From a virus (taxonomy: Duplodnaviria; Heunggongvirae; Uroviricota; Caudoviricetes): a stretch of DNA of 28,791 nt. A program made the position numbers and the translations under genes. The DNA lies in IMG/VR virus record IMGVR_UViG_3300042524_000214, positions 102,663 through 131,453 of that record. One strand, written 5' to 3'. Of this stretch, positions 3,001 through 28,791 are shown in pieces; position 1 is the stretch's first letter; each line of letters opens with the position of its first letter. The notes under the pieces were generated by a model. That model saw nothing but the letters and a program-made list of their open reading frames with translations. It was not told where the DNA came from and did no database searches.

Positions 3001-6000
3001 ATCATTGGCTAATAAAGGTAATCCATTAGCATCTTTGTACTTAGTTTCTTGTAACAAAGGGTTCTCTTTTCTTTGTTTATCTGTTATTGGCTCATCTCCA
3101 AATCCTGACTCTGTAGAAAAGATTTTCATACTTTTGTTTTCACGCAAGTCTTTAATCATATCAGCAGAGCTGTCGTATGGTTCTGAATTGTTTATCTCAA
3201 CTTGATAACCTTTGTTTATTATTTTTTGGTACTGTTCCAAAGTCTCATCAACCATCGCCTTATACGCAGCTTTAGTTTCAGAGTCATTAGGTGTAGCTTT
3301 CATTTTAACAAACTCTTGAGCTATTCTTTTACTGTTATCCGTATCTAATTTTGTTATTTTTTGGATAGGGTTAGTACTCATTCCTTTTTCAGACATGTAC
3401 TCATTAGCTATAACAGCTGCATCTTCTAAAGGTTCGTTAAAAAGCTTATTCCCAGCTACAATAGAAAAGTTTATGTTTGAACTTCCTTCTATATCCCCAA
3501 ACTTAGCTTTTGCTTCTTGGGTTTTCTCATAAACTTGTTTAAAGTCCTCGAAAGACATATCTTTTCTTCTGGCGTAAGCTCTTATCATGTACATACCACC
3601 AAAAGTACCTGCATCTAAATGTACAGGTTTACCTCCTTTTATTCCCCAATTTTCTATATTTGTTAAGTCACCATAGATTATATCATAGTTTAAAAATTCT
3701 TGCAAACCATAGCTTTTAAGAACTTCTATTAAATCGGGATTTCTGGTGTCGAAATCAGCTTGACCATAAGGTGTAAGCTCTTGTATCATAACATCTGCAT
3801 CCTCAGTGTCATACTGCTTTCCGGTGTTAATGTCGTAAACAGGTACTTTGGTTTTGCTGCCAAGGACTTCTAATTTTTCAACTACTACATAATTTAACCC
3901 AGTTTCATACACTTGTGGAAGTAAGCCTTTGTCTATCAACTCAGGGTCTCCTTCTTGCATATTTTGGGCTAATCCTCTAGCTGTATTAGCTACTTTTAAT
4001 ACTTTACCGTCTCCCAAATCAAATACAACTCGGTCAGAACCTGAGGATAACTTTTTTAAGTTTGGTATGTCAAATCTTTCTCTAGCCACTTGGTTAATAT
4101 CGTATTTATATCTGAGGTAAACGTTGTTTTCCCCCATATTTCTTGATATTCTGTTACCAGATAACATTTCTGTAGCAGAGGCTGTCCCAAAATCGGCTAA
4201 TGTCATATTAGATACTTCATCTGCTGTGTAACTTGTCAGACCTAATACGTCTTTTATAGATTCCCAAAAACTTCTTAACCAATCTGCTATAGATTGCTCT
4301 TCTTTTGATTGTATTAGTTTAGCACCTTGGTCGCCAATTACTTGAGCTAGTACTTCATTGTTAAATTTCTCAGTACCTTCTTTTAAATCTGGCTGAGTTT
4401 CTTTTACAATGTCTATGTATTGCTGAGCCTCTTCTTTATTTTTTCCAATCAAAGATACCCCGGCTTTGTATAAGTCGTTTCTATTTTCTTTTAACCAATC
4501 TATGTGCAAATGACCAAACTCGTGAATAGGGGTGTCTAATGTCATAGCATCTGTGTTTAGATACACATCTCCTTTATAGGTAAACCCGGCAGTTGTTTTT
4601 TCTACATTTTCTTCTCCAAGTTCTACTAACTTATCTTCTATCTCAGAGTTAGACATCTGGTAGACATTATTAGCCAAACCTGATTGTTTTAGACGGTCTG
4701 ATACTTCTGTTAGTACCTCTTTTTTATTTGTTACTATCTCATTAGAAGATTTTCTATTCTGAGGAATAAATATTTGGTTCTCTCTTGCTGCATCTTCTGT
4801 ATCTTGTAGCAAAGAGTATAGTCTCTCTTTAGGAGTCATCTTTAAACGCTTTTCTACGTTTCTAGCTTCTTCTTCCCCCATAGCAGAACGATACCTTTGG
4901 TATAAATAATTGCTAGGTGCGAATATAATATCTCGGATTTCAGAAGGTGCATCATACCATTTTTTACCATTTAGTTTTGCTTCTTCCTCTTTTTTCTTTT
5001 CAACTAAGTCTTTATATTCATTTTCCTGCTCTGTACTTAAAAAGTAATATATCCCCCTAGTATTGGCTCCTTTTGCAAATCCCTCTTTTTGTTGAATCCA
5101 GTGTTGTATTTCATGTAAAGTTACTGGCAGTAATACAGCATTCAAATTATTAAAATCTGATTTTTGTAATGTTTCATTTGAACCCTCTTTAAAATCCTTT
5201 ACTATTTTGTCAAAACTGTCATTCTCCATCAAAAACATTGAATTAGAGGAACTCATTTTTGTCATTTCAGCATATCCTAATCTTTCAAGAATTTGTAAAT
5301 CTGCTTGTCTTTTATCATACGGGTACTTTTCAAAAGCCATATCTAAAATGTCTGAATATGACATACCAGAATCTCTTAAAGACTCTTTATAAGCATCTAT
5401 CTCTAGGTGCTTATTAACTATCCTTAAAACTTCCGGGTCTAAATTTTTGTATTTTTCTAACCTTGATTTAGCTTCAAAAAAGTCTTTTAGTTTATTGCTT
5501 TCTATACCCAATACAATTTGGCTACCGTCAAAGAACCCCTCTGTGGTAGTACCTCCTTTTTTAGATACAGATATTTTTACATCATTTAATTCTGGGTAGG
5601 CTTGGAATAATTCCGGGTAATTTAGTATAGATTTTAGGCTGTACTTTTTACCAAGTTTGCCCATAGAGTCTATCTTAAAATTCAATGAAGCTTTTGAACT
5701 ATCTAATTCATACTTCCATTGATTATCAGCTCCTTTTTGCCAACCCGTTGCTATTTTTATTTTTAGAGGGTTTTCGTTTGCTTTCTCCATTTCTATAGCA
5801 ACCTCTAAATTGTCAACTACAATTGTGTCTCCAGAGATAGCATCTAAATTTTGTGCACCTTTTAGTCCAACTATCGAAAAGCTAACGTCAGCCGGAGCCA
5901 CTTTGACTATTTTTTTAAAACGTTCTTTTAAAGCATTTAACTTAGTATCCATAGCTTCTTTAAGCTCTTCTACTTCGGTTAGTGCATAAATGTTTAAGGC

Positions 6001-11981: not shown

Positions 11982-11983
11982 TT

Positions 11984-14788
11984 TTATCTTATTTTTGTTT
12001 GTAGTACTTGTTTTCTTCTTTCCATTATTTCATTTTCTAAGTAACTATTTATTAAAGACATAGTGTTAGTATTAAATGTATGGGTATTGTAATCAATAGC
12101 TACTGGAGGCATGTTTTTAATCATTTTACCGTTCTTCATAAGAGTTGGATAAAACGCTCCTGATTTTCTTTCCCAGTTAACTGAGTAGTTTGCCTCTAAT
12201 ACATTTGTAGAATAGTCTTGTAAGTATTCTTTTGGTAAGTACTTTGATGCTACGTCTAACAATTCGTCTTTTGTTTTAAACTCAGAAAAATTTGTTCTTT
12301 GTATTAATTCAGTTATCCCTTGAGGTAAAGAATTAGAGTAGTTGCCCAAATACTTATTAGAAAACTCATATCTTGAGTCTAAGTCTACAAAAGGTTTATA
12401 GTGTAACAACACTTTCATTTCTTGCGGATTGCTCTTAGAATAAGCCCATTCTGTTTTATTGGTCTGCATGCTGCTCATTAAGTTAGAAGGTAAGTTAGAA
12501 ACAGGTATTTGTACCGTGTCTCTTACTATTTCTTTTGTTTGTCCTCCTTTTTCTTTTGGTATTAGTAGTTCGTTGTCAAAAGAAACTGTGGCTATACCGT
12601 TCTCTACTTTTTGTATTAATATGTTTGTGCCTTTTTCTGGGCTTTTCCCTTGTGCATATAAAGCAGATTTAACTGCATCAATATACGGTACATCCCCTTT
12701 ATTACCTGAACTTAAAACTACAGACATTGTTTTATCTAAATTAGCTTCTTGTTGTTTTAGTATAAGGTCGAATTTTGAAGCTACTGATGTTTTTGTGTTT
12801 AATATTCTATCAGTTACTCCTTCTCCATTTTTTAGATTAATATCGTTTCCTTCAATCTCATTCAAATTAGTATCTGAACTAAACGTTCTACCTATTACTT
12901 TAGCTTGATTTAAAATTCCTTTGAAGCCTTTTGCAAAACCTTCTCTTGAATCTTGTGCGTATTTTGAGGCATCTGTATTAAATATTTTTGCTTTGGCACC
13001 CATAGTCATAGCAGACCATGTTCCTTGAGCAATACCTGACATAGTTTCCCAACCAGATTCCCAAAACCCTGGATTTTCTGTTTTGTATTTTTCTAGCTCT
13101 TTATCAGAAATTTTATTTTCTTGTTTTACTCCTTGTAGATAAAAGTCCATTCTTTTTTTATCGTCTTCATCATCAAGAACGTAATCCTTTATATTTTTGG
13201 CAATCTCATAAGAAGCCATTGCTTTTTCTTTTGGTGTTAACTGTGAAGCATTTTTGTATTTTTTAAGAAGTTCTGCTGTATATGGCATGCTGGTTGAAAG
13301 ACCACTTACATTTAAGTCTTTTGTTTTACCTCCAAATAAACCATTTAAAGTCTCATTAACATCTTTGCTATAATACTCGGTAGCGGCTTTCTTTAAGTTA
13401 TAAGAAATTTTATTATGGTATTCTACTTTTTTATAACTTTCTAATACCTCTGGACTAAATCCTTGGGCATTAATGTCTGTACCCTCTTTAGAAGTTTTCT
13501 TTAAGTTAATGTAATAGTTGGTTACATCCTTGTCTGTAGCACTCTTACCTTCTTTTTGTAACTGTTGTTTTACTACTTGTTTGAATTCGTTGTATGAAGT
13601 GTTTCTTCCTTTTTCATATAGTGCTAAAGGAGATTCTTTTTCTTTTTCATTAACTTTTTCTTCTACGCTTGTAAATGCAGTACCTGCTGGCAATCCTTGT
13701 GCTGCACCTGTACCTAAACCAGCACCTTTACCTGTTCCGGTTCCTTTTCCTGATTTGTAAAAATCATCGTTTTCTATGTCTGTTATTTCAGAATACCCAA
13801 AAGTTTTCTTGTAAGACTCAATTAAATTGTGTGTCTCATTTTTGTATAAAAAGCTATCTCTATTAAAATTTTTAGGGTCTAATTGAGATTCAAAAAATTC
13901 TTTTTGTTGACTTGTATAAGACTTCTTCTGATTAAGTGTTTCTAACTTAGCTTTATCATCTGGATTAGTATTTTTAATATCCGTGTCTATAGAAGACAAC
14001 GTTACATCGTACTTATTTAACAAAGGTTTAGCTTGGTCTTGGTACTCTTTTAATAAAGACTCATCTGGAACACCTCTATATTTATAGTGGGCATTAATCA
14101 TTAGCTGGTCTTTAAGTTTTGTATCAGATTGAATTCTATTATTTACAAAACTGTCTATCTCTTCCGGTTTTATCCTTTTTCCTTTTACTGTTTGGTAAAT
14201 GTAACCACCCTGTACACTAGTGTCTACAACTCTTTCAAAACCTCTTTCTTTAGCCCATTTATCTAATGGCTCGTTAAGGTTTTTTGTTACATCGTAGTAT
14301 TCTTTGTATTGTAAGTTACCTAAATCATCTGTTTCCCCTTTCATATAAGCAGCATAGCCCGACTTATCTAACGCATACGCATAATTGGCATCGTTATATA
14401 ATTCAGGCTTTTGTTTTTTAACTCTTGCAGCTTCTTGTTGAAAGCTTTGTATTTTTTGGGAATTTCCTATTTGTGTTTTTACATTCTCATCAATAGCAGT
14501 ACTAATATAGTTGTTTACTTGTCTAGCAACATTATTATTAGTCATATCTACTTTAGAGTTAGCATCTACCATTGATAATAGCCCATGGAGTCTATCCCCA
14601 AGATACTTTTTATCCTGTTCTCTAGCTAAAGGAACACTTGTTATTTTTTGTATTAAGTCGTCTACTTTAGCTACGTTGACATCAAATCTTTGTTGTAAAG
14701 CTGTTTGAACTTGACCCGTTAATTGCACCACATCCATAGTGGATATAGCGTGCCCGTAGTTTATAGGTGTAGAATATGCGTTTGCCAT
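11984..14788 (-). CDS. Putative virion cargo/ejection protein (934 aa)
   Basis: Long ORF with a helical N-terminus (QQRFDVNVAKVDDL...QDKKYL...VDMTNNNV) resembling crAss-like cargo proteins (recollection, not searched), a Gly/Thr/Lys linker (KSGKGTGTGKGAGLGTG) and its own upstream promoter. No catalytic motif recognised. Confidence 0.65.
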   Translation of the reverse strand: MANAYSTPINYGHAISTMDVVQLTGQVQTALQQRFDVNVAKVDDLIQKITSVPLAREQDKKYLGDRLHGLLSMVDANSKVDMTNNNVARQVNNYISTAIDENVKTQIGNSQKIQSFQQEAARVKKQKPELYNDANYAYALDKSGYAAYMKGETDDLGNLQYKEYYDVTKNLNEPLDKWAKERGFERVVDTSVQGGYIYQTVKGKRIKPEEIDSFVNNRIQSDTKLKDQLMINAHYKYRGVPDESLLKEYQDQAKPLLNKYDVTLSSIDTDIKNTNPDDKAKLETLNQKKSYTSQQKEFFESQLDPKNFNRDSFLYKNETHNLIESYKKTFGYSEITDIENDDFYKSGKGTGTGKGAGLGTGAAQGLPAGTAFTSVEEKVNEKEKESPLALYEKGRNTSYNEFKQVVKQQLQKEGKSATDKDVTNYYINLKKTSKEGTDINAQGFSPEVLESYKKVEYHNKISYNLKKAATEYYSKDVNETLNGLFGGKTKDLNVSGLSTSMPYTAELLKKYKNASQLTPKEKAMASYEIAKNIKDYVLDDEDDKKRMDFYLQGVKQENKISDKELEKYKTENPGFWESGWETMSGIAQGTWSAMTMGAKAKIFNTDASKYAQDSREGFAKGFKGILNQAKVIGRTFSSDTNLNEIEGNDINLKNGEGVTDRILNTKTSVASKFDLILKQQEANLDKTMSVVLSSGNKGDVPYIDAVKSALYAQGKSPEKGTNILIQKVENGIATVSFDNELLIPKEKGGQTKEIVRDTVQIPVSNLPSNLMSSMQTNKTEWAYSKSNPQEMKVLLHYKPFVDLDSRYEFSNKYLGNYSNSLPQGITELIQRTNFSEFKTKDELLDVASKYLPKEYLQDYSTNVLEANYSVNWERKSGAFYPTLMKNGKMIKNMPPVAIDYNTHTFNTNTMSLINSYLENEIMERRKQVLQTKIR

Positions 14789-19618: not shown

Positions 19619-22343
19619 CAACATTCTTTTGTAATAGTAAACTATCAGAAGTTGTTTTGTAAGATTTTTTATTATCCCCTACATCAAACATATTTGAGTA
19701 ATTCAAAACTTTATTAGTATAATCTACATCATAGTCTTTAGCCCAGTCTTCTATTTTCTTACCATTTACCACACGACCCATCGTACTATTATAAGTTGTT
19801 ATAGCTCTATACATAGCATCTTTTTTACTAAATCCTTTATCTAGAAATTTTTTATAGTCTTTAGATAATTTATACATAGTAGTCAATGATGCTTTATTTT
19901 CATCAGAAAAATTATCTTTTGTGATACCTAATTCTGTTACATCATCATTTCCAAAGTTAGATTCATATTTTAATTGTCCTGCTCCTTGGGATGCTTCGTC
20001 TTTTTTAAGCCCTACAGCATGTGCAGATTTAGCTACTGTTTGTTTTATACCGGTAGTGTATTTAGCACTTGTACCAAAACCTGTCTCTTGACCTAGTATG
20101 CCCAAGGATGCCTTAGCTAATGAGTTGTACTCATCGTCACCAAGGTTAAATACTTTTGAAAGTACTTTTTTATTCTTGTTATCATTCAAAGGTTTTATAA
20201 AAGAGTTCTCTAATTTACTTTTTGCAGAAGCTGATGTAAAAAAGTTATCATAATCCCCAGTGGATAAAGTGGCTGCTTTTTTAGGGTTTAGTTTTATAGC
20301 TAAGTCTTCTCTAACTATTTTCTTTTCCCCATTCTCTACAGAACCATAATTTGGTCTAAATATATGCTTTACTGTGTATGGGCTACTATGCCCTTGTATT
20401 TCACTTGCTTTAACTAAATCTCTATACTCTCTACCTTCAAAACCATCTTCTTTATTCCCTTTGTGCAGATTATGTAGTATGTAGTAACTTCCATCTGGGT
20501 TTACTTTATCTACTATACCTACGTGGGTTGTTCCGGTTCCTGCTGCATCGGCTTCTTTTTGGAAAGGGCTAATACCATGTGTGTAAACTGTGATTACATC
20601 TCCAGCTTGTACTTGTTTAGGTTTTACCTCTTGCCCACCTTTGCTTATTATATTTTTACCTATACTCCAAGCATCCCCTGTTATACCAGTCTTGGCATTC
20701 CATTCATCTCTCGATACATTAGGTTGCACGTTTCTAAATAGCTCATTTTGGCTATATTCTGAACACTGTGACTCTGTGCACTTGCCTAATAAACCTTTAC
20801 CCTCTTTTATGCTAGAGTATCCATTATTAGATAAGTTTTGGTTATACTGTTGTATTGCTTTTAATGTTACTTTACCTGCTTTACCATCTATACCTGAATT
20901 CTCAAACTTACCTTCTGGATTTAGATTATATCCTTTTTCTACTAAGAAAGACTGTAGTTTTTTTACTTGGTCTTGGCTTTTAAAATCAGATAGTTTTAAA
21001 TCTATATCTTTATTTTCTATAGAATCCTCTAAAGTAGCTTTGCTTGAAAGTTCCTTATTTATTTCAGATAAATTCAATCTATCTTTTTTATCTTCTATTT
21101 CTTTTAATATCTCTTTTTTAGTACCGTATTTTAATTCCTGTTTTTTTTCTAGTACTTGCTCTTGTATATTTCCAGTACCTTCCCTAACTCCGGTAAATTG
21201 TCTTCTGGGTAAATCCTTGAATACTACCTTTTCGCCTGGTTTAGAGCCATATTTAGATATTAACTCGTCTACTTTGCTAGTTGGTTCTGCTTTTTTTGTA
21301 GTTGGTTTTGCAGTCGGTTTCTGAGTTGTTCTTTGAGGTGTTCCAAAACCCTGAGATAACTGTTCTTGAAAAGTTTTAGGAGCCGCCCCGAAAGGGTTTT
21401 CTTCATCCTCTGCATAAGTTTCTGCAAAATCTCCACCTTCAGCAAATCTTTTTAGTTCTTTGTTGAACACCTCGTAATCAATACCCCCTTGTGTACCCCC
21501 TTGTGTACCACCATTTTCAAAATAGCTTGGTGCTTGTTGAGCTTGATATTCTGGAAGTTCTGGCATATATAATTCATAGCCTGATTGATTAGCTTGAGGA
21601 GCTTGTTGCTCTTCTTGTCTTGCTTGTAGTTCTTGGATAAAGTTTTGCTCTTGTTGAGATTTTTTTAGTTCTTCTTTTGCGGAGTCTCCTTCAATATCTT
21701 CTTGGCTTTTATCCGTTTCATAATAATCTTGTGCTGTTACGTAATCCCCAGAATTCTCTGTTAAGTTAAGAGTTGAATCTAAATAGTAGTCTTTTGGTTC
21801 AGACTTATCTGCATAATAGCTATCTCTAGACTCTGTGCTAGAAGGGTAATTATTGTTTTCCGGATTAGACTTATTTGAGCTAATTCCTATTTTTCCTAAA
21901 ATACTTTTTATTTTTACATCGTACTTATCATCTGTGGCATAACCTTCTCCGCTACCGGTTCTTGGGTTATACTTCCAAATTTTTCCTAATGCTTCGTCTA
22001 CGGTGCTTGCATTTTTGTATTTGCTACCCCATTTTTTTATTCTATCATCTACTGCTTCTTCTAGGGTATCATAATCTCTAAATTTGGCATTAGTTCTGTA
22101 AGACCTATTATTTGATACCTCTAATGTAGACTTATTGCTACCTTTTTGGGAGGCTGATGCTTTTTGCCCAAAATAGTTGTACTTACCGGCAGGGCTCTTA
22201 AACCAACCAGTTTCTAAAATTGCTTGGGCTAAGGTTAGCTCTGGGTGTCTATCTCCTCTATTTTTTGCTGTATCGTAGAGTTGTGTAGCTTTGCTCCACT
22301 GCTCATTACTTACATCTTTTGGTTTTATTAAAACATCTGCCAT
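19578..22343 (-). CDS. Multi-domain peptidoglycan hydrolase (921 aa): GH73 glucosaminidase + PG-binding-1 + NlpC/P60/CHAP-like amidase + lytic transglycosylase/lysozyme-like
   Basis: GH73: AQAILETGW (E at 22212-22214), NYFGQK, FRDY, YATDDKY. PG-binding: VKKLQSFLVEKGY...GIDGKAGKVTLKAIQQY (~20840-20985). Papain-like: QCSEY (C 20763-20765), GDAW, AGDVI, THVGIV (H 20523-20525), ILHN. SLT-like: ILGQETGFG (E 20085-20087), SQGAGQLK, TYNS, YTNKV. Confidence 0.88.
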   Translation of the reverse strand: MADVLIKPKDVSNEQWSKATQLYDTAKNRGDRHPELTLAQAILETGWFKSPAGKYNYFGQKASASQKGSNKSTLEVSNNRSYRTNAKFRDYDTLEEAVDDRIKKWGSKYKNASTVDEALGKIWKYNPRTGSGEGYATDDKYDVKIKSILGKIGISSNKSNPENNNYPSSTESRDSYYADKSEPKDYYLDSTLNLTENSGDYVTAQDYYETDKSQEDIEGDSAKEELKKSQQEQNFIQELQARQEEQQAPQANQSGYELYMPELPEYQAQQAPSYFENGGTQGGTQGGIDYEVFNKELKRFAEGGDFAETYAEDEENPFGAAPKTFQEQLSQGFGTPQRTTQKPTAKPTTKKAEPTSKVDELISKYGSKPGEKVVFKDLPRRQFTGVREGTGNIQEQVLEKKQELKYGTKKEILKEIEDKKDRLNLSEINKELSSKATLEDSIENKDIDLKLSDFKSQDQVKKLQSFLVEKGYNLNPEGKFENSGIDGKAGKVTLKAIQQYNQNLSNNGYSSIKEGKGLLGKCTESQCSEYSQNELFRNVQPNVSRDEWNAKTGITGDAWSIGKNIISKGGQEVKPKQVQAGDVITVYTHGISPFQKEADAAGTGTTHVGIVDKVNPDGSYYILHNLHKGNKEDGFEGREYRDLVKASEIQGHSSPYTVKHIFRPNYGSVENGEKKIVREDLAIKLNPKKAATLSTGDYDNFFTSASAKSKLENSFIKPLNDNKNKKVLSKVFNLGDDEYNSLAKASLGILGQETGFGTSAKYTTGIKQTVAKSAHAVGLKKDEASQGAGQLKYESNFGNDDVTELGITKDNFSDENKASLTTMYKLSKDYKKFLDKGFSKKDAMYRAITTYNSTMGRVVNGKKIEDWAKDYDVDYTNKVLNYSNMFDVGDNKKSYKTTSDSLLLQKNVAKWRTSLKSQNKI
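21483..21506. repeat. Exact 12-nt tandem duplication (acccccttgtgt x2) encoding GG-TQ-GG-TQ-GG
   Basis: Read directly from the sequence; in frame within the lysin gene, immediately after FENGG. Confidence 0.85.
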
Positions 22344-22381
22344 ATTAAAAAAATTAAGCCCCTAAAAGTTAAATTAGGGGC
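22344..22381 (-). terminator. Intrinsic terminator-like hairpin ending the tail transcript
   Basis: Minus strand GCCCCTAA-TTTAACTT-TTAGGGGC (8-bp stem, 22358-22365 / 22374-22381) followed by TTAATTTTTTT, 42 nt downstream of the stop at 22424. Confidence 0.65.
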
Positions 22382-22411
22382 AAAATTACTAAAAATTATT
22401 GTAACTTCAAA
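22381..22411 (-). promoter_or_regulatory. Bacteroidota primary-sigma promoter upstream of the lysin gene
   Basis: TTTG (22408-22411), 19-nt spacer, TAATTTTG (22381-22388). The final G is also the first base of the terminator stem. Confidence 0.62.
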
Positions 22412-22423
22412 ATTAGTTAAATT

Positions 22424-23359
22424 TTATGTGTTTTGGGATTCGTTTAGCACAAATTTAAGTGCTAAGCTAAATCTACTATCTTTATCATAAGAAAGCCTAT
22501 TTAAGAACCAATCTCCTTCCATTTTTCTAAGTGGGTTAATACCTTGGAATTTAATTACCGCTGGGTTAGGTTGTTTATCTATCTGATTCTTGTCTTGGAG
22601 TAAAGCTGGTATGTTTGTTGTATTGTACTTTACTCTGTTAAAAATATAATCATAAGAAAACTGAAAATTATCTTTATTAGTAATCAAAATATTTTGTGTA
22701 TTATTCGGATTTGTTTTTGGATAATTTTTTACAGTGGCTAGGTTAGGCTCTTGTATATCTAATAGTAGTTGCCCTGAACAACCTACGTTATTGTAAATCA
22801 AAGACTTGTTAAACGTTAGTGAAGGTGTTACAGCAAAATCATAATCATTGCTATATCTTTTTGCTTCTGTCCATAATTTTACACCTTTTAACCTTTTTGT
22901 CATATACTCAGATTTTATAGGGTACTCAACAGTGAAAATCTGTTTTTTACCATAAAATACTTGGTAGGACTTGTTTGTTAGTAAGTGTGACCATAAACCT
23001 AATTCTTGGCTATCTAAAGCATTATTTCTTCCTGTTTGGAAGTAACTGTTATGATTAATATAATAGTTAGGGTAGAAGCCATAAAAGCTTAACCAAGAGC
23101 CTGTGTTTAATGAAAAAGCTATCGTCCAAGATACCTCTTCAAAATATCTAACATCTGTTAAACTAGCAGGGGTTAATATGTCAACTACTGTTGGTGGTAT
23201 AGAATCTTCACAACTACAGTAAGCATTACCATTTTCTAATCTAATTAGCGTACAGCCTTCTGGGCAAAGCACGTTTGTAATAGTACCAGAACAGGAGCAG
23301 TATACTACTCCTAATTCTGTGTACTGTGTACAATTTGTTTGTGGGCAAGTGCAATTCAT
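22424..23359 (-). CDS. C-terminal part of a crAss-type tail-stabilisation-like protein (311 aa) with a Cys-rich N-terminus
   Basis: Start revised from 23404 to the ATG at 23359 (MNCTCPQ...), 10 A-rich nt after the upstream stop, which removes a 35-nt overlap. Motifs FEEVSWTIAFS, WLSFYGFYPNYYINHNSYFQTG, GLWSH, FYGK, TFNKSLIYNN, GDWFLNRL resemble the C-terminal half of crAss-like tail proteins (recollection). Confidence 0.68.
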   Translation of the reverse strand: MNCTCPQTNCTQYTELGVVYCSCSGTITNVLCPEGCTLIRLENGNAYCSCEDSIPPTVVDILTPASLTDVRYFEEVSWTIAFSLNTGSWLSFYGFYPNYYINHNSYFQTGRNNALDSQELGLWSHLLTNKSYQVFYGKKQIFTVEYPIKSEYMTKRLKGVKLWTEAKRYSNDYDFAVTPSLTFNKSLIYNNVGCSGQLLLDIQEPNLATVKNYPKTNPNNTQNILITNKDNFQFSYDYIFNRVKYNTTNIPALLQDKNQIDKQPNPAVIKFQGINPLRKMEGDWFLNRLSYDKDSRFSLALKFVLNESQNT

Positions 23360-23369
23360 ATTTTTATTT

Positions 23370-25580
23370 TTATAATACTGTAATATCAAATGTTGGTGGT
23401 ACAAGCCATAGTTGTGAATAGGTTGGTTCAGGTATTGCTAAATCTAATTCAAAAGTAGATACGCCAGTTGTAATAGGTGTCCCTAAGGCTTGCATAGTTA
23501 TTGTTTGAGAACCTAGTGTTGTAAAAGTACCTTTCGCTCTAAATGTTACTCCATTAGCATATCCTATAAAATCGTATGTTCCTAAGAATGTAACATTTAC
23601 TGTAATATTTTGTGTTACTGTGCTTGGTGTTATTGCAACACCTGCTGTTAAAGTTCCTGTTTGTGTGCCTATTGAAATACTATCTATTTTACTATTACCC
23701 CCAGTTGAACTTTCGTAAGTGGTTAAAACTTGCCCAGGTACAAAAGTACAAGGGTTTATTTCTAATACTTTAGAACCTATAACTCCATCATAAACGCTAA
23801 CTCCATTTATAAAGAACTGTAACCCTACTACATCACTGTGCTGGTTATAGTATTTTCCAATAAGGGTGACTCCTACAGTTGGTGTGGGGTTTGTTACTAC
23901 GTTTGTGCCTCTTAGTCTTATTTTTAGTGTGTTTGCGGTAGCTGATAAGCCCTCTTCTATAATACCTGATTTAATTACTGAATACTCTACAAAACTCTCT
24001 CTAGAACTTGTATCACCTGCTAATGGGGAAGTAGTAAATCTCCCGTATACTATTTTATTAAATTCGTCTGGTGTACTTGAATTATTTAAGCTGACATAAG
24101 TTGCAGGGGTTTCCACATTTGATGGGGATGGTAAAATGCTTGCTGATGGTAAATAATGGAAGCAATCTATTGGTACACCATTTGTCATAAAATTATATCT
24201 AGCCCTATTACAATTATGCCCAAACGTAGAACTAATAGGAGACCAAAAAGCTGTGTAATTTGCTTCTGTACTTGTTCCAGTAACATACGTTGTCCCATTC
24301 CAAGTATAAAAAAGGTTTGTATCAGATGCAACATAAACCTGACCTAATAATCCAGGAGTAGGGAATAATGCGTAGTTAAGATAATTATTTCCGCCTAATC
24401 TTTGAATCCCTGGAGTGGGTGAAAATACGCTACAGGATAAATTTACTGTAGTGTTTGAAAAAGTAACTACTGGTGCTGTTGCACTATACTTTAAAATACT
24501 TATATTATTTGCAGAGCCACCGAGTGTAATACCTAAAGCAAGTAATGTTGTATTGTGGGTATTTCTAAAATCAGTAGCTGTTTGTGTAGTACTTGAGTTA
24601 AATGATATAGCATAGGGTGTACCATCTATAATAATGTTACCTGAACCACTTGTACCAGATACACTAATACTTATACTTGTATATGGTAGAGTAAACTCTC
24701 TCAAATTGTCATAAAATACCCTAGCTGTAAGCACTGCTAAACATTCTTCTATTGTAGCTCCTATATTTATTGTGTAAACTAAAGTGTTTGTACATCCATT
24801 TGGGGCTGTTGCTACTATGGTGTAAACTACTGCGGCAGCATTAGGGCATGTTAGTGTGTCTGTTATTACACTGCCTGTTCCAGATGTTGCTCCAGTAACA
24901 CCTGCATCTGCTACAACAGTCCATGCAAAAGTTGTTCCTGGAACTCCACTACTAAGAGCTACGTTCAATGAATCACCGCTTGTAATTGTTTGTGGGCTAT
25001 TTGGCACTGCTATTATATTTGGTTTTGGGTTAACTGTAACTGTAACTTGTATAGGTGTTCCTGAACATCCTGACAAACCTTGTTCATAAGGTGTTATTGT
25101 GTATATTGCAGTCCCTGGTGTTGCACCTGTCGCAACTAAAGCTTGAGATATAGTATTACCTGATGCAATAGAGTTACCTGAAGTACCTCCATTAACACCC
25201 GTTTGTAAAACTACCCATGAATACACGACCCCACTAGGTAGTGTGGATGTAAGGGGTACAGATGTATTATCACCACTACAAATCGTTTGTGGGGATGCTA
25301 TTACATCAGCTAAACAGAGACAATCTGCTGGTATATCATTACTTGCTTCGCAATAAGAATCCTCTGGATTTTGTGCGACATACACGTATAAATAACCATC
25401 TGGACATAAATTTCCTGTGTTATACGCTAGAATACATTCTGTTTCATCTTCACTTAAAGTGTAGCCTGGTGGACAAGACTTTGGTTTACAAGATGGGGGT
25501 ACTGTAGTTGTTGTTTCACAGTATTTTACTCCTTGTATATCTACCAGTATGGCATTTTCGTTTTCACAATAGCAACTCAT
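23370..25580 (-). CDS. Adhesin/tail-fibre-like protein (736 aa): Cys-rich N-terminus, two PKD-like Ig-fold repeats, Thr/Gly-rich C-terminal beta domain
   Basis: CPPGYTL and CPDGYLY modules. Repeats QTICSGD...YSW...YTITPY...GCSG...VTVTVNPKP and QTITSGD...FAW...YTIVATAPNGC are typical of Bacteroidota PKD-like domains. C-terminal GTLTAG...VNVT..GTY....NGVTF...GTFTTLG.QT......GTP...G..TF resembles Flavobacteriia surface-protein repeats. Confidence 0.72.
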   Translation of the reverse strand: MSCYCENENAILVDIQGVKYCETTTTVPPSCKPKSCPPGYTLSEDETECILAYNTGNLCPDGYLYVYVAQNPEDSYCEASNDIPADCLCLADVIASPQTICSGDNTSVPLTSTLPSGVVYSWVVLQTGVNGGTSGNSIASGNTISQALVATGATPGTAIYTITPYEQGLSGCSGTPIQVTVTVNPKPNIIAVPNSPQTITSGDSLNVALSSGVPGTTFAWTVVADAGVTGATSGTGSVITDTLTCPNAAAVVYTIVATAPNGCTNTLVYTINIGATIEECLAVLTARVFYDNLREFTLPYTSISISVSGTSGSGNIIIDGTPYAISFNSSTTQTATDFRNTHNTTLLALGITLGGSANNISILKYSATAPVVTFSNTTVNLSCSVFSPTPGIQRLGGNNYLNYALFPTPGLLGQVYVASDTNLFYTWNGTTYVTGTSTEANYTAFWSPISSTFGHNCNRARYNFMTNGVPIDCFHYLPSASILPSPSNVETPATYVSLNNSSTPDEFNKIVYGRFTTSPLAGDTSSRESFVEYSVIKSGIIEEGLSATANTLKIRLRGTNVVTNPTPTVGVTLIGKYYNQHSDVVGLQFFINGVSVYDGVIGSKVLEINPCTFVPGQVLTTYESSTGGNSKIDSISIGTQTGTLTAGVAITPSTVTQNITVNVTFLGTYDFIGYANGVTFRAKGTFTTLGSQTITMQALGTPITTGVSTFELDLAIPEPTYSQLWLVPPTFDITVL

Positions 25581-25590
25581 ATTTTTGGTT

Positions 25591-25947
25591 TTATTTTATT
25601 AATACAGCTTCTTTTCCGAAACCATCTACCCTCAGCATAAATTTAAAATCTACTTTTACCGGGAATTTTATTTTATTGATTTCTAAAACTTGTTTTTGTG
25701 TTATATTTTTTTGTATGATAATATCATAATCACTTGAATCTATCCAATACCCTTTTACTCTTGACCCAAATAAATACATCTGACACTCTCCTATAGTAGT
25801 TTCTAGTAAGTCCTTTATAATGTGTAATACTTTTTTACAATCCTCTGGTAATTCTTTCCACTCTGTTATTAAAGGATGAACTGCCAGTCTTTTTACTGGC
25901 AGCTTAAATCCTAATGGGTTCCCTATGTATGGGTATTGTTTTCTCAT
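25591..25947 (-). CDS. Minimal nucleotidyltransferase (Pol-beta superfamily), 118 aa
   Basis: YLFGSRVKG....SDYDI = hG[GS]x9-13Dh[DE]h signature, with a probable third acid in VKVDF. The start is more likely 25947 (MRKQYPY, 5 nt after the upstream TAA) than the 25983 of the track. Confidence 0.8.
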   Translation of the reverse strand: MRKQYPYIGNPLGFKLPVKRLAVHPLITEWKELPEDCKKVLHIIKDLLETTIGECQMYLFGSRVKGYWIDSSDYDIIIQKNITQKQVLEINKIKFPVKVDFKFMLRVDGFGKEAVLIK

Positions 25948-25952
25948 ATTAT

Positions 25953-28791
25953 TTAATTCCACCATGTCCCTTTTGGTATACAACTATAAGCACCAAATCC
26001 AGTTGTTGGTTGTACATTTGGTAAAAAAGGACTTTCAATACTCATACCTAAATTTTTTGTCCACCAAAATATTACTGGAAAAGCTTCCCCAGATATTTGT
26101 CTGCTTATACTTATAGTAAAGGTAGAGCCTGAATATGGGCAATCTATCGTAGATAAATCGTCATGGAACACAAAACCACTTCCTGCTACACCTATTATGC
26201 TGTTTAACCAGTTGTTTATGTTTTGTACGTATGTTGTAACTCCATTAAGACCTACCCCAACCACTAAACCTGATGGTGCGTTTATTGTTAAAGTTTGCCC
26301 GGAAGCATACTCAGTGCCATCTAATTTTAGCTTATTTAGTGTAAAAGTGTATGTCGCACTAGCCCAATTTTTTTCAATACTTGAGTACTCTTGGTAACAT
26401 CTACTTGGAGATATTGTTGGACATATCGCTAAAACTCTATCTAATCTTTCACATAACCCTGTTTTTGAATTGTATGTAAAATCAGGAGGGCAATTAGTGG
26501 TTGTCTCTTCATTACAACATTTTGTCTCATTGTAAAAGTAACCTTGACCTGGGATATAATCTATACAAGGGTCTGGTATGTAATCTTTCTTAGTTATAAA
26601 AACTCTTCTATATCTACTGTCCCAACCCATTGTAATACCAACACCGTTGTACGGGTTGTCTACATCCACATTAGGTAAGTACTTTAGTATTTTGAATGGG
26701 AGCTGTTCTTTAAACCAGTTCCTCATTCCACTAGCTTTACTGCCGGCAGCTGTAGATATTTCTACAATACCTGAACTGTTAGGTGCCACCATTAAGACTT
26801 GACCTCTTTTTGCATCTGCCCAAAAATGACCAGCTTCACAAGATACTTGAGCAAAGTTTTGAGTTCCACCATATCCTAACTTAGCATTCACAAATGATGT
26901 AGATGCTCTTTGGAAGAACATATTACCTCCTAGGGTAGTTGCTGTTATAGCAGCCCCCGTGTCTATTTTAGTATCTACCTTATTGTACAGTACAGAAGTA
27001 TCCGAAAATCTAGCAAGTATTGCTCCACTTTCAACATCAATTACATCTTTTAATTTACCGTAGTTTGAAGGAAATTCAAATGTATCTAATGGTCTATAAA
27101 TCAACCATGGGTCATAAGAAGAGGTTTCAGAATTATCTGGTAAACTTGCTATGATACCATTTGGCATATTTTGTATAACATCATACAATCTCTTTTTGTA
27201 GATTTCTGGTATCGTTCTAGTTCTAATTCTAGAAACTTGATTAGAATAAGCACTGTTATATCTAAAGATGTTTGGTTCTCTTATAGGTACGTTTGTCTCT
27301 TGTGTCCACTCCCCTAAATCACCTACTTGGGGATAAAACCCTTCTCTTTTTTCTTTACCTGCGTATCTGTATGCAGTGTTTATCCTTGTTTCTGTTAAGA
27401 AATTTGGAACCCCGTAATGGTATAAATAAAATTTAGACGGTGGGGTATAATAATTACCGCTTGATGAAGGGGTATCAAAATTAAAATCACTAGATATATC
27501 GGGTAATAATCTATTACCTTGTCCAAAATCTTTATTTTCTTCGTAACTAACATAAAAATGAGGTCTTCTACCTATATTATTGTAAAAATAATAATTGTAA
27601 GGTGTAAGGTCTGCTTGTTTCATAGCTGTTACTAAGAACTGAGACATCTTTCTTTTTAAGCTATGTCTAGTAATAAAAGTGTCTCCTCCAAAAATTGATA
27701 TACAACTTGTTTGTGGATTTCTTAAATTCCCTCTATAACCTGTGCTTAGCCACTTAACTGAGCTTATTGTACCATACTGTGTGGGTAAATAATTCTTTAG
27801 TGCTGCATACGGTGATGCGATATTTTTTATTATCTCTTGGCTTCTTCCGGTTGTAATTAAGTTATTTTCCCCCAGATAAGTCATACTTGAATCATTAGAC
27901 GATTTATCATAGTTTGTATAATCAACAGGGTACTCTACAGGAAATTTACCAAAAGATAAAAATACAGATTTCTCTCTATCAATGTTATTTACACTTAGTC
28001 TTTCTCCGGTAGTTTCATTTGTAACAATATATCTACCATCTCCTAGGTATTTACCTATATTCGCTGCTCTAAGTTTATTACCTTCATCCCCCCAAATTCC
28101 TTGTGGGTTTGGAGAAGAGTGGCTTATATAATTGTAAAACCCTTCTGAAAAATAGTAGTACGCAAAATTATGTGGTGTTCCTAAATCTCTAAATATTTTT
28201 AACCACTCATATCTGTATCTACCATACTGAAAGTATGCTCCACTAATACCACCTATTGCTGCAATAGCTATGGAAGCTACTAGCCCCCCAGGAAAAACTG
28301 TACTAGAAAAACCTACTACTATATTGGTATTTGATAAGGCTTGTAATGCTTCAATCAAGACATTAAAAATGGTCTCTGCTATTGCTAAATCATTTGCTAA
28401 TGTATATGCTCTCTCTGTTAAAATTACCCATTTTGGGTGTTGTTTTACTTGGTCAAAATTACCTCTTGAATTGCCATATTGGTATCCTTGAAAACTCACC
28501 TCAGAAGGAAGTCCAACTTTTGTATAGTCCGTTTCTGGAGAATGAAAAGTATAATGCCTATTAGATTCTCCAAATATGGCACCTTCTCCTAAATTCTCTC
28601 TATTTGTCTCAGTTGCATAAGGCTCATTGAACTTATCGGTTGAAAATGTATTGTAAGGATAATTGGAATACAATATGTCTTTGTCAACAGTTTCTGTTTC
28701 TCTATACTTACGCATATCATATAACAGTCCTGAGGCTACTACACTTCTATCTAAACTAATATCTCCTCTAAATAGTTCGTAACCAACTATT
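25953..28791 (-). CDS. N-terminal/central part of a crAss-type tail-stabilisation-like protein (5'-partial, >945 aa)
   Basis: The frame stays open past the track start (28715) to the window edge: IVGYELFRGDISLDRSVVASGLLYDMRKY. Motifs FGGDTFI, YGVPNF, DLGEWTQE, WLIYRPLD, YGKL, LARF, LGYGGTQ, GHFWADAKRG, WFKEQLPF, DNP...G...GWDSRYRRVFITKKDY match my recollection of crAss-like tail proteins; a Cys-rich insert follows. Confidence 0.72.
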   Translation of the reverse strand, partial: IVGYELFRGDISLDRSVVASGLLYDMRKYRETETVDKDILYSNYPYNTFSTDKFNEPYATETNRENLGEGAIFGESNRHYTFHSPETDYTKVGLPSEVSFQGYQYGNSRGNFDQVKQHPKWVILTERAYTLANDLAIAETIFNVLIEALQALSNTNIVVGFSSTVFPGGLVASIAIAAIGGISGAYFQYGRYRYEWLKIFRDLGTPHNFAYYYFSEGFYNYISHSSPNPQGIWGDEGNKLRAANIGKYLGDGRYIVTNETTGERLSVNNIDREKSVFLSFGKFPVEYPVDYTNYDKSSNDSSMTYLGENNLITTGRSQEIIKNIASPYAALKNYLPTQYGTISSVKWLSTGYRGNLRNPQTSCISIFGGDTFITRHSLKRKMSQFLVTAMKQADLTPYNYYFYNNIGRRPHFYVSYEENKDFGQGNRLLPDISSDFNFDTPSSSGNYYTPPSKFYLYHYGVPNFLTETRINTAYRYAGKEKREGFYPQVGDLGEWTQETNVPIREPNIFRYNSAYSNQVSRIRTRTIPEIYKKRLYDVIQNMPNGIIASLPDNSETSSYDPWLIYRPLDTFEFPSNYGKLKDVIDVESGAILARFSDTSVLYNKVDTKIDTGAAITATTLGGNMFFQRASTSFVNAKLGYGGTQNFAQVSCEAGHFWADAKRGQVLMVAPNSSGIVEISTAAGSKASGMRNWFKEQLPFKILKYLPNVDVDNPYNGVGITMGWDSRYRRVFITKKDYIPDPCIDYIPGQGYFYNETKCCNEETTTNCPPDFTYNSKTGLCERLDRVLAICPTISPSRCYQEYSSIEKNWASATYTFTLNKLKLDGTEYASGQTLTINAPSGLVVGVGLNGVTTYVQNINNWLNSIIGVAGSGFVFHDDLSTIDCPYSGSTFTISISRQISGEAFPVIFWWTKNLGMSIESPFLPNVQPTTGFGAYSCIPKGTWWN

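What the first reader, a model, noticed from the sequence alone, without database searches (positions are those of the whole stretch)
22424..28791. Tail-stabilisation-like gene appears split in two around an adhesin plus nucleotidyltransferase cassette
Seen: the large ORF's conserved-looking sequence stops at RVFITKKDYIP (~26575-26605) and turns into a Cys-rich module and an unrelated tail. Conserved-looking sequence resumes ~3.4 kb later at YFEEVSWTIAFS (~23110-23145) in the 311-aa ORF, again preceded by a Cys-rich module. The 736-aa ORF between them also starts with Cys-rich modules. From recollection, TKxDY and F...SWT are parts of one polypeptide in crAss-like homologues. Inference: a hypervariable loop of the tail hub accumulated receptor-binding domains and was then broken into separate genes, so the hub must assemble from split subunits, with an exchangeable host-range module in between. 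All intervening stops are TAA and the frames differ, so simple read-through does not explain it.
Basis: partly seen in the sequence, partly recalled or inferred. Interest (0 to 1): 0.7.

Follow-up and report, generated by a model that had tools for sequence, protein, structure and literature searches.

The report
Split tail-tip muzzle gene with adhesin cassette
A freshwater crAss-like phage encodes its normally single, about 2,300-residue tail-tip "muzzle" (nozzle) protein as separate pieces, cut at a hypervariable surface loop that now holds swappable adhesin-like modules and a small nucleotidyltransferase gene. The same split recurs in several related phage lineages and is kept by selection.

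Summary
The 5'-open large ORF (P0001) and the 311-aa ORF (P0002) tile one family. On PHROG 37948 they cover positions 1002-1749 and 2051-2288. On an intact relative (L005) they abut within 4 residues.

The family is the crAss-type muzzle / podophage nozzle. A model of the intact relative matches crAss001 gp44 (Foldseek E 2e-15, VIA Z 18.8) and P22 gp10/T7 gp12-type nozzles. The break lies inside the C-terminal beta-propeller, at the tip of a two-stranded arm.

Most homologues are single 1,900-2,900-aa proteins. Their loop at this site is 27-595 aa long and holds VWA, PKD or beta-propeller inserts on Cys-rich stalks.

The split is real. Contigs from three other studies bridge all three junctions without indels. 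Six other loci show the same or a simpler split. dN/dS is 0.05-0.31 for all four ORFs.

There are two junction types: (A) domain X, stop, NTase, then an ORF starting MSCYCEN; (B) adhesin, stop, then an ORF starting MNCTC. The window carries both. The distal modules are mosaic between near-identical phages.

Reassembly of the pieces, and docking of the 736-aa adhesin (complex prediction: weak support only), are inferred. A split nozzle was described in 2026 in an unrelated podophage, so this is a new variant of a known kind.

The parts
25953..28791 (-). 3' part (945 codons) of the muzzle N-fragment gene. The whole gene is about 2,064 codons and continues at the start of the circularly permuted record.
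   Evidence: PHROG 37948 positions 1002-1749, E 5e-218; 64% identical to residues 1944-2691 of intact P0009; N-terminal ~1,120 aa at G000:C1:86-3466, with a 143-nt overlap of the contig ends
26520..26606 (-). Last conserved core strands of the N-fragment (RVFITKKDYIP ... GQGYFYNETK). This is the outgoing arm of the two-stranded beta-arm.
   Evidence: Invariant K/D of TKKDY in alignment A1; strands E559-565 and E580-587 in the model of the intact relative; coordinates
26397..26519 (-). Cys-rich CPxD[FY]-type stalk module at the exit from the core
   Evidence: Six Cys in 41 residues; conserved in L009, L010, L016, L017 and L011; similar modules in unsplit relatives score as cEGF/CBM_14-like
25956..26402 (-). 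Domain X: a ~150-aa distal C-terminal domain of the N-fragment, fold unassigned
   Evidence: Conserved only in loci that have the NTase; AF2 model pLDDT 68, best PDB Z 5.2, no assignment; dN/dS 0.21
25591..25947 (-). Minimal Pol-beta-type nucleotidyltransferase, 118 aa from the ATG at 25947
   Evidence: Pfam NTP_transf_2 21.1 bits (cut-off 21); Polbeta and MTPAP-like just under their cut-offs; G-S...D-x-D motif in the sequence; same position in L009, L010, L011, L016 and L017
23370..25580 (-). 736-aa adhesin-like ORF. Residues 1-95 hold the MSCYCEN hairpin plus two CPxGY modules, 96-280 two PKD-like domains, and 281-736 a variable distal part ending in an Ig-like repeat unit.
   Evidence: PKD_5 76.2 bits, E 1.9e-21; the homologue is fused in frame to the N-fragment in L004; the distal part is replaced in L010 and L016; the C-terminal unit is shared with Bacteroidota Fib_succ_major proteins
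22424..23359 (-). 311-aa muzzle C-fragment. Residues 1-52 are Cys-rich (MNCTC hairpin plus a CPEGC module), 55-71 are the returning arm, and 72-311 are the last part of the beta-propeller.
   Evidence: PHROG 37948 positions 2051-2288, E 4e-50; 86% identical to residues 2696-2946 of intact P0009; dN/dS 0.05
22358..22381 (-). Terminator-like hairpin (8 pairs followed by a T run) after the C-fragment. It is the likely end of the transcription unit.
   Evidence: It is a consensus match only; the total count of such sites in the region is not above the shuffles.

Best explanation
This is the tail-tip muzzle (nozzle) gene of a crAss-like phage of the Cellulophaga phi4:1 type, found in lake water. 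It is encoded as separately translated pieces in one operon.

The pieces are:
- An N-fragment of about 2,064 aa. It ends with the outgoing strand of a two-stranded arm that protrudes from the C-terminal beta-propeller, followed by a Cys-rich stalk module and a 150-aa distal domain X.
- A 118-aa nucleotidyltransferase.
- A 736-aa adhesin-like protein that starts with a Cys-rich hairpin.
- A 311-aa C-fragment: a Cys-rich hairpin, a CPxGC module, the returning strand, and the remaining propeller blades.

Shown here: the pieces tile one family, the break lies at a hypervariable display loop, the split is real, it recurs, it is under purifying selection, and the distal modules are exchanged by recombination.

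Inferred: the N- and C-fragments re-form the propeller by strand complementation, as in the split nozzle of phage A1002. The stalk hairpins, possibly disulfide-locked, hold the adhesin at the tip. Cutting the loop gives the distal domains free C-termini, so any binding domain can be swapped in without having to re-enter the core fold. That would make the loop a plug-in host-range module.

The window combines two junction designs found singly elsewhere. Type A (L011) is domain X, TAA, NTase, TAA, then an ORF starting MSCYCEN. Type B (L004, L012) is adhesin, TAA, about 10 nt of A-rich spacer, then an ORF starting MNCTC.
For: Tiling.

Single-gene homologues: phi4:1 gp042 (MS-verified virion protein), csAssE-Sib, L005 and L006. 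Most of the 150 best representatives are 1,900-2,900 aa with the P0002 region at their C-terminus.

Fold: a model of intact P0009:2100-2946 (pLDDT 81) matches the crAss001 muzzle, 7QOL_P/7QOK_A, at Foldseek E 2.4e-15 and 5e-15 and VIA Z 18.8 with 530 residues aligned. It matches P22 gp10, T7 gp12, SU10 and Pa223 nozzles at Z 8-12 over model residues 366-847. The split site, model residues 588-605, lies within that range.

Synteny: a CrAss_Ring_1 gene lies directly upstream in the window's own genome and in relatives.

Display loop: 27-595 aa in unsplit forms, carrying VWA, DUF5122 propeller or PKD domains plus Cys-rich modules.

Not an artefact: contigs from lake metagenomes of three other studies bridge all three junctions with no indels. 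The same four-gene layout is found in L009, L010 and L016, and its first three genes in L017, whose contig ends inside the third. Two-piece layouts are found in L004, L011, L012/L013, L014 and L015.

Selection, window against L009: dN/dS is 0.07 for the N core, 0.21 for domain X, 0.21 for the NTase, 0.31 for the middle ORF and 0.05 for the C-fragment.

Mosaicism: the L017 N core is 95% identical to the window's but its NTase only 50%. The L010 middle ORF is 97% identical over residues 1-95 but only 25% in the distal part.

Recurrence: at least 4 changes of the split state on a quick ML tree.

Translation starts: the A-rich contexts resemble those of the other genes in the window.

Adhesin docking: weak support only. 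ipSAE is 0.32 against a best control of 0.00. That mark was reached by 58 of 80 solved complexes and 2 of 110 mismatched pairs, but scores of 0.60 or under came from only 7 of those 80 and from both mismatches. The runs agree in at least 72% of contacts and the partner's pLDDT is at least 68. I supplied my own alignments, and a three-chain job differs from the calibration set.

Precedents from papers: a split nozzle whose propeller is completed by two proteins (PMC13730344), and inter-subunit disulfides and variable insertions in the crAss001 tail and muzzle (PMC10172136).
Against: There is no protein-level evidence that any fragment is in the virion or that the fragments bind. The N-fragment/C-fragment interface itself was not scored. 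Docking of the adhesin has only weak computational support. Domain X and most of the distal part of the adhesin have no assigned fold, so receptor binding rests on domain-family analogy (PKD, VWA, Ig-like). The fold model is of a relative (64% and 86% identical), not of the window's own chains. The quick tree may be distorted by recombination. The role of the NTase is unknown, and it may be unrelated to assembly.
Confidence: 0.8

Rival explanations
1. The split is a neutral by-product, not a host-range device. A selfish cassette (the NTase, with or without domain X) or a chance stop landed in a loop that tolerates breakage. The pieces still assemble, but the cut itself brings no benefit (constructive neutral evolution).
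For: The NTase sits exactly in the type-A junction in all six loci that have it. It was not found in five records without that junction (weak). The loop already tolerates inserts of up to 595 aa without being cut.
Against: Type-B splits without any inserted gene recur in distant lineages (L004, L012/L013, L014, L015). Start modules and spacers are conserved. The distal domains next to the free ends are the parts that are exchanged.
Confidence: 0.2
2. The C-fragment no longer belongs to the muzzle. The N-fragment works alone with a truncated propeller, and the 311-aa ORF is a decaying remnant or has taken a new role.
For: No direct evidence of association was obtained here.
Against: dN/dS of the C-fragment is 0.05, the lowest of the four ORFs, at dS 0.61. 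It is 86% identical to the intact relative. Split C-fragments persist down to 41-45% identity with intact start modules. The cut lies inside the propeller.
Confidence: 0.05
3. One polypeptide is still made, through read-through, frameshifting, an intron, or protein splicing by inteins.
For: The N-fragment and the 736-aa ORF share a reading frame.
Against: About 20 stops of all three kinds lie between them in that frame. Spacer lengths vary among relatives (roughly 1-25 nt). No Rfam intron was found. No Hint/intein family was found in Pfam. The C-terminal residues of the N-fragment are not conserved: WWN, NNA, PIA, VIQ, TPI. The intervening DNA encodes proteins under purifying selection.
Confidence: 0.02
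4. The split is an assembly or sequencing artefact: a chimeric contig or frameshift errors.
For: L011 shows frame breaks in the N-part, but these coincide with scaffold N gaps.
Against: Independent contigs from three other studies bridge each junction without indels. The junction DNA is conserved in Logan, ENA and IMG/VR assemblies.
Confidence: 0.01

Closest known systems
Muzzle protein gp44 of Bacteroides phage crAss001 (PDB 7QOK/7QOL; PMC10172136)
   Same: Same fold family by structure search on an intact close relative (Foldseek E 2e-15, VIA Z 18.8). Same gene position after the ring-protein genes. Length variation through insertions is described for gp44 as well.
   Different: gp44 is one chain of about 1,360 residues. 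Here the protein is about twice as long and is cut inside the C-terminal propeller into separate genes, with an NTase gene and an adhesin gene in between. phmmer finds no similarity to PDB chains.
Split nozzle of Pseudomonas podophage A1002 (nozzle-rope gp39 plus nozzle-base gp42; PMC13730344, 2026)
   Same: The platform and beta-propeller of a nozzle are reconstituted from two polypeptides by added strands. One of the two chains carries the fibre-docking extension.
   Different: It is an unrelated phage group. Homology to the A1002 proteins was not tested here. In A1002 there is no natural series of intact, two-piece and three-piece forms, no Cys-rich start modules and no embedded enzyme gene. 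For this window the assembly is only inferred.
gp042 of Cellulophaga phage phi4:1 (Lightbulbvirus) and the muzzle protein of epsilon crAss-like phage csAssE-Sib (PMC11054128)
   Same: Sequence homologues: 47% and 37% identity to the N-part, 39% and 34% to the C-part. phi4:1 gp042 is a proteomically verified virion protein.
   Different: Both are single ORFs. The loop is about 35 aa in csAssE-Sib and about 320 aa without cysteines in phi4:1.
Modular exchange of C-terminal receptor-binding domains in phage tail fibres and tailspikes (general knowledge)
   Same: A conserved anchoring part plus freely exchanged distal domains, with a mosaic pattern between near-identical genomes.
   Different: Here the anchor is a loop of the nozzle propeller itself, not a fibre, and the exchangeable ends were created by cutting an essential single-chain protein.
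Minimal nucleotidyltransferases (MNT) of HEPN-MNT toxin-antitoxin pairs
   Same: Small Pol-beta fold NTase with a G-S ... D-x-D motif. Pfam NTP_transf_2 is at its threshold.
   Different: There is no HEPN partner next to it. It sits between structural-gene fragments, and its function is unknown.

Membership tests
crAss-type muzzle / podophage nozzle (crAss001 gp44, P22 gp10, T7 gp12) | C-terminal beta-propeller of nozzle type | tested here: met
   Tested on intact relative P0009:2100-2946 (64% and 86% identical to the window's halves): Foldseek E 2.4e-15 to 7QOL_P; VIA Z 18.8 with 530 residues aligned; nozzles at Z 8-12. The window's own chains were not modelled alone.
crAss-type muzzle / podophage nozzle (crAss001 gp44, P22 gp10, T7 gp12) | Sequence membership in the family of phi4:1 gp042 (PHROG 37948, virion structural protein) | tested here: met
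   E 5e-218 for the N-part and 4e-50 for the C-part, at consecutive profile positions
crAss-type muzzle / podophage nozzle (crAss001 gp44, P22 gp10, T7 gp12) | Gene lies after the ring-protein genes of the tail module | tested here: met
   CrAss_Ring_1 at G000:C1:3478-4359, directly upstream of the N-fragment start; the same arrangement in L009, L010, L016 and L017
crAss-type muzzle / podophage nozzle (crAss001 gp44, P22 gp10, T7 gp12) | One polypeptide per subunit of a hexameric tail tip | tested here: not met
   TAA stops and separate ATG starts, confirmed in independent assemblies. The oligomeric state cannot be tested with these tools.
Split nozzle (A1002 gp39/gp42 type) | Propeller completed by strands from two separately encoded chains | tested here: inconclusive
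   The cut maps between two paired strands inside the propeller range of the model, but the N/C interface was not scored and no structure exists.
Split nozzle (A1002 gp39/gp42 type) | Homology to A1002 gp39/gp42 | not tested
Intron- or intein-interrupted gene | Group I/II intron RNA, or a Hint domain with conserved splice-junction residues | tested here: not met
   No Rfam match in 22000-27000 at E <= 1 apart from a chance snoRNA hit. No intein family in Pfam. The fragment termini are not conserved.
PKD-like domain adhesin-type proteins (Pfam PKD_5) | PKD_5 domain above the gathering score | tested here: met
   P0003 scores 76.2 bits against a cut-off of 25, in two stretches
Minimal nucleotidyltransferase (Pfam NTP_transf_2 / Polbeta) | Pol-beta NTase domain with the G-S and D-x-D motif | tested here: met
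   NTP_transf_2 scores 21.1 bits against a cut-off of 21; Polbeta 24.4 against 26.9; the motif FGSRVKG...DYDI is in the sequence. Membership is marginal.
HEPN-MNT toxin-antitoxin pair | Adjacent HEPN toxin gene | tested here: not met
   The neighbours are the muzzle N-fragment and the adhesin ORF in all six loci

The most novel reading that the evidence does not exclude
The short Cys-rich start hairpins (M-x-C-x-C ... G-V-x-Y-C) may be a portable docking code, possibly disulfide-locked. It would let separately encoded receptor-binding proteins plug into a deliberately cut nozzle propeller, making the tail tip a multi-chain exchangeable adaptor. The co-inherited, fast-evolving nucleotidyltransferase may be a functional partner of this junction, for example by modifying a fragment or the host receptor, rather than a passenger.
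Probability: 0.2. Interest if true: 0.8.

Novelty: new variant of a known kind. Interest (0 to 1): 0.62.

Why it matters
The muzzle is the most conserved and least understood tail-tip protein of crAss-like phages. It is thought to contact the cell surface and to gate ejection. This locus gives a natural series: intact with a short loop, intact with displayed domains, two pieces, and three pieces plus an enzyme. The series pinpoints one loop of the propeller as the display and host-contact site, and shows that an essential single-chain nozzle can be cut there repeatedly. That suggests where host-range determinants of uncultured crAss-like phages sit. It offers a natural design for splitting and re-targeting the tail tip in laboratory phage-host pairs. 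It also extends the just-described 'split nozzle' principle to a second, unrelated phage group.

Tried and rejected
- PDB by sequence: phmmer of P0001 and P0002 gave no hits.
- Pattern scans of viral contigs for the NTase and for domain X found no relatives.
- Domain X in proteins of 266-2000 aa: none found, which is weak evidence.
- Fold of domain X: the AF2 model has pLDDT 68. The best PDB match is Z 5.2 (outer domain of flagellin), which is below the noise level. BFVD gave E >= 0.03. The Atlas neighbours were PA14 domains at TM <= 0.40, from a poor model. I therefore assign no fold, and the PA14 lead is not confirmed.
- Atlas search for the distal part of P0003: nothing usable.
- Pfam at lenient thresholds for the Cys-rich pieces, domain X and the distal part of P0003: nothing.
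- NTase in five records that lack the type-A junction: no match. The tool warns that an empty answer proves little, and three of the records are fragments.
- PADLOC for the NTase: only weak PDC-S09 hits, best E 2.7e-4.
- RNA evidence: no RNA holder listed.
- Promoter and terminator scans: counts are not above the shuffles, and Bacteroidota promoters are not covered by the scan.
- The careful ML tree did not finish, so the quick tree was used.
- Intron, intein, read-through and artefact readings are rejected (see rival explanations).
- The frame breaks in the N-part of L011 are scaffold gaps, not further splits.


Full report
WHAT IS THERE. The window is the last 28.8 kb of a 131,453-bp IMG/VR virus record. 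All large genes are on the minus strand. In the finding's range lie four ORFs:
- a 5'-open ORF, 25953-28791 (P0001, 945 codons);
- a 118-codon ORF from the ATG at 25947 to 25591 (the NTase, within P0004);
- a 736-codon ORF, 23370-25580 (P0003);
- a 311-codon ORF, 22424-23359 (P0002).

The gaps between them are 5, 10 and 10 nt, and each upstream ORF ends in TAA. The big ORF is not truncated in nature. The two ends of the record overlap by 143 nt with one mismatch, and the first ~1,120 residues lie at G000:C1:86-3466. The N-fragment is therefore about 2,064 aa long, close to the 2,063 aa of the same gene in L009.

THE TWO CONSERVED PARTS BELONG TO ONE FAMILY. P0001 residues 1-754 match PHROG 37948 positions 1002-1749 (E 5e-218). 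P0002 residues 64-309 match positions 2051-2288 of the same 2,289-position profile (E 4e-50). On an intact relative from IMG/VR (L005, P0009) the window's pieces cover residues 1944-2691 (64% identity) and 2696-2946 (86% identity). They abut within four residues. Cellulophaga phage phi4:1 gp042 (2,289 aa, a virion protein by MS/MS) and the 'muzzle protein' of gut phage csAssE-Sib (2,257 aa) are single ORFs. So are L005 and L006. Among the 150 best of 848 representatives found with P0002, most are 1,900-2,900-aa proteins with the matching region at their C-terminus.

WHAT THE PROTEIN IS. An AlphaFold2 model of P0009:2100-2946 was built with 78 aligned relatives and has mean pLDDT 81. Its best PDB matches are the crAss001 tail muzzle gp44: 7QOL_P and 7QOK_A at Foldseek E 2.4e-15 and 5e-15, and VIA Z 18.8 with 530 residues aligned. 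Next come the nozzle proteins of podophages (Pa223, SU10, P22 gp10, VP1, GP4, T7 gp12) at Z 8-12 over model residues 366-847. A CrAss_Ring_1 gene lies directly upstream of the N-fragment in the window's own genome and in relatives. According to PMC10172136, gp44 forms the hexameric tail tip. It has a seven-bladed propeller like the T7 nozzle, and it varies in length through insertions. In the model, TKKDY lies on strand 559-565. An outgoing strand (580-587) and a returning strand (595-600) form a two-stranded arm, and YFEDVSWT begins the next strands. The split site is the tip of that arm, inside the propeller range.

THE SITE IS A DISPLAY LOOP. I could locate both flanking motifs in 51 unsplit homologues. 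In those, the linker is 27-595 aa long. The long versions carry CPxGY-type Cys-rich modules on the outgoing and returning sides, and between them adhesion-type domains: VWA (P0019, P0044), DUF5122 propeller repeats (P0035, P0045; E about 1e-45), and PKD_5/Ig_7 (L004). P0019 is 72% identical to P0002. It has the returning hairpin in frame (…VCTCPEGY…), where the split genes have their start M-N-C-T-C-P.

THE SPLIT IS REAL, CONSERVED AND RECURRENT.
- Contigs of lake-water metagenomes from three other studies bridge each of the three junctions, and no indel is reported. One of them is a variant about 97% identical.
- L009 and L010 (Logan) and L016 (ENA) have the same four-gene order. L017 (Logan) has its first three genes and the contig ends inside the third. 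NTase identity in these loci falls as low as 50%.
- L011 has the N-fragment with domain X, then the NTase, then a 279-aa C-fragment. That C-fragment starts MSCYCENESATLIIIDGVTYCEY and runs straight into …HFEEVSWT.
- L004 has a 2,537-aa ORF in which the homologue of P0003 is fused in frame to the N-part. After 11 nt comes a 312-aa C-fragment that starts MNCTC.
- More distant C-fragments (41-56% identity) also start M-x-C-x-C. Each is preceded by an ORF ending in a different distal domain, for example DUF285/BspA-like repeats in L015.
- A quick ML tree of the last 250 residues needs at least four changes of the split state. It is a quick search, and recombination could distort it.
- For the window against L009, dN/dS is 0.07 (N core), 0.21 (Cys module plus domain X), 0.21 (NTase), 0.31 (middle ORF) and 0.05 (C-fragment), at dS of about 0.5-0.8. 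These are working genes, not decaying remnants.

TWO JUNCTION DESIGNS, COMBINED HERE. Type A is domain X, TAA, NTase, TAA, then a short A-rich spacer (6-10 nt in the loci examined) and an ORF starting MSCYCEN. Type B is a distal domain, TAA, about 4-25 nt of A-rich spacer, then an ORF starting MNCTC. The junction DNA is conserved (…ATAAAATAAAACCAAAAATATGAGTTG… and …TAAAAAATAAAAATATGAATTG…). The A-rich start contexts resemble those of the other genes in the window. The window, L009, L010 and L016 carry A and B together. L011 has A alone. L004 and L012 have B alone. The simplest history is a B-type locus (L004-like) that acquired the A-type cassette by recombination within the Cys-rich modules. 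This order of events is an inference.

MOSAICISM.
- L017: the N core is 95% identical to the window's, but domain X only 68% and the NTase only 50%.
- L010: residues 1-95 of the middle ORF are 97% identical and the C-fragment 97-100%, but the distal part of the middle ORF is unrelated (25%).
- L011: the C-fragment core is 89% identical, but the NTase only 53%.

The exchanged units are exactly the parts next to the free chain ends. The last ~95 residues of P0003 are an Ig-like unit. It is found in tandem in Bacteroidota proteins that carry Fib_succ_major domains and, by the database's precomputed Pfam annotation, PTL_trimer domains.

HOW IT MOST LIKELY WORKS (INFERRED). The N- and C-fragments re-form the propeller. 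The last core strand of one chain pairs with the first core strand of the other, as was shown structurally for the split nozzle of phage A1002, where gp39 fills in the missing propeller and platform strands of gp42 (PMC13730344). The Cys-rich hairpins form a stalk. Inter-subunit disulfides are documented in the crAss001 tail (PMC10172136), so disulfide locking is plausible but untested. Cutting the loop frees the displayed domains from the need to return to the core, so any C-terminal binding domain can be recombined in.

Docking of the 736-aa protein was tested with one three-chain complex prediction, with P0003 residues 1-100 as the partner. The result was weak support. ipSAE was 0.32 against a best control of 0.00. 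The mark was reached by 58 of 80 solved complexes and 2 of 110 mismatched pairs, but scores of 0.60 or under came from only 7 of those 80 and from both mismatches. The runs agree in at least 72% of contacts, and the partner's pLDDT is at least 68. I supplied my own alignments, and the job differs from the calibration set. Replacing the N-fragment chain abolished the score. This raises my odds only modestly.

THE NTASE. It is a minimal Pol-beta-type enzyme: NTP_transf_2 scores 21.1 bits against a cut-off of 21, and the G-S…D-x-D motif is present. There is no HEPN neighbour. It lies in the type-A junction in all six loci that have it. It was not found in five records without that junction, which is weak evidence. 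It diverges much faster than its flanks. Its role is open. It could be a passenger or anti-defence gene that came with the cassette, or a functional partner of the junction.

RIVALS. An artefact, read-through or frameshift, an intron or intein, and decay of the C-fragment are each contradicted by direct tests. The serious alternative concerns the 'why'. The cut may be a tolerated, neutral consequence of insertions rather than an adaptation for module exchange.

NOVELTY. In the paper library I found no description of a split muzzle in crAss-like phages. A split nozzle in an unrelated Pseudomonas podophage was published in November 2026 (PMC13730344). This is therefore a new variant of a known kind. 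Compared with A1002 it adds a natural evolutionary series, recurrent origin, conserved Cys-rich start modules and an embedded enzyme gene. The scan's earlier notes on this stretch (the Cys-rich docking idea and the orphan NTase) agree with what I found.

Noticed in passing
window 28649-28791 and G000:C1:1-143: The two ends of the record overlap by 143 nt with one mismatch. The 'linear, 91% complete' record is therefore probably a complete, circularly permuted genome, and the muzzle gene runs across the junction.
   Followed up: partly
L005:~1560-4800 (P0009 residues ~520-1600); also L006: The intact muzzle of this relative carries a very long run of NHL-like repeats (…G.TIDS.GNLYV.D..N..IRKI…) in its N-terminal half. 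This is a second hypervariable display site in the same protein.
   Followed up: no
window 22400-26700: All public runs that hold this DNA are lake-water or freshwater metagenomes, from eight studies. Earlier notes of the scan call the phage marine.
   Followed up: partly
window 22358-22381 (-): A strong terminator-like hairpin lies right after the C-fragment, and none lies between the four ORFs. This is consistent with one transcription unit.
   Followed up: no
L011:1430-1960 and 3650-3770: The apparent frame breaks in the N-part of this ENA scaffold coincide with runs of N (X in the translation). They are scaffolding gaps, not further natural splits.
   Followed up: partly
window 23436-23714 (-): The last ~95 residues of the 736-aa ORF are an Ig-like unit (…GV.V.GVTQTITATV..GTY.I…ANGVTF.G.GTF…). 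It occurs in tandem arrays in Bacteroidota proteins that carry Fib_succ_major domains and, by the database's precomputed annotation, PTL_trimer domains.
   Followed up: partly
L001:~11240-12140 (phi4:1 gp042 residues ~1750-2050): The Cys-free ~320-aa insert of phi4:1 at the same loop has a D-T-T-S-M stretch that recalls a VWA metal site, but Pfam finds no family for it.
   Followed up: partly
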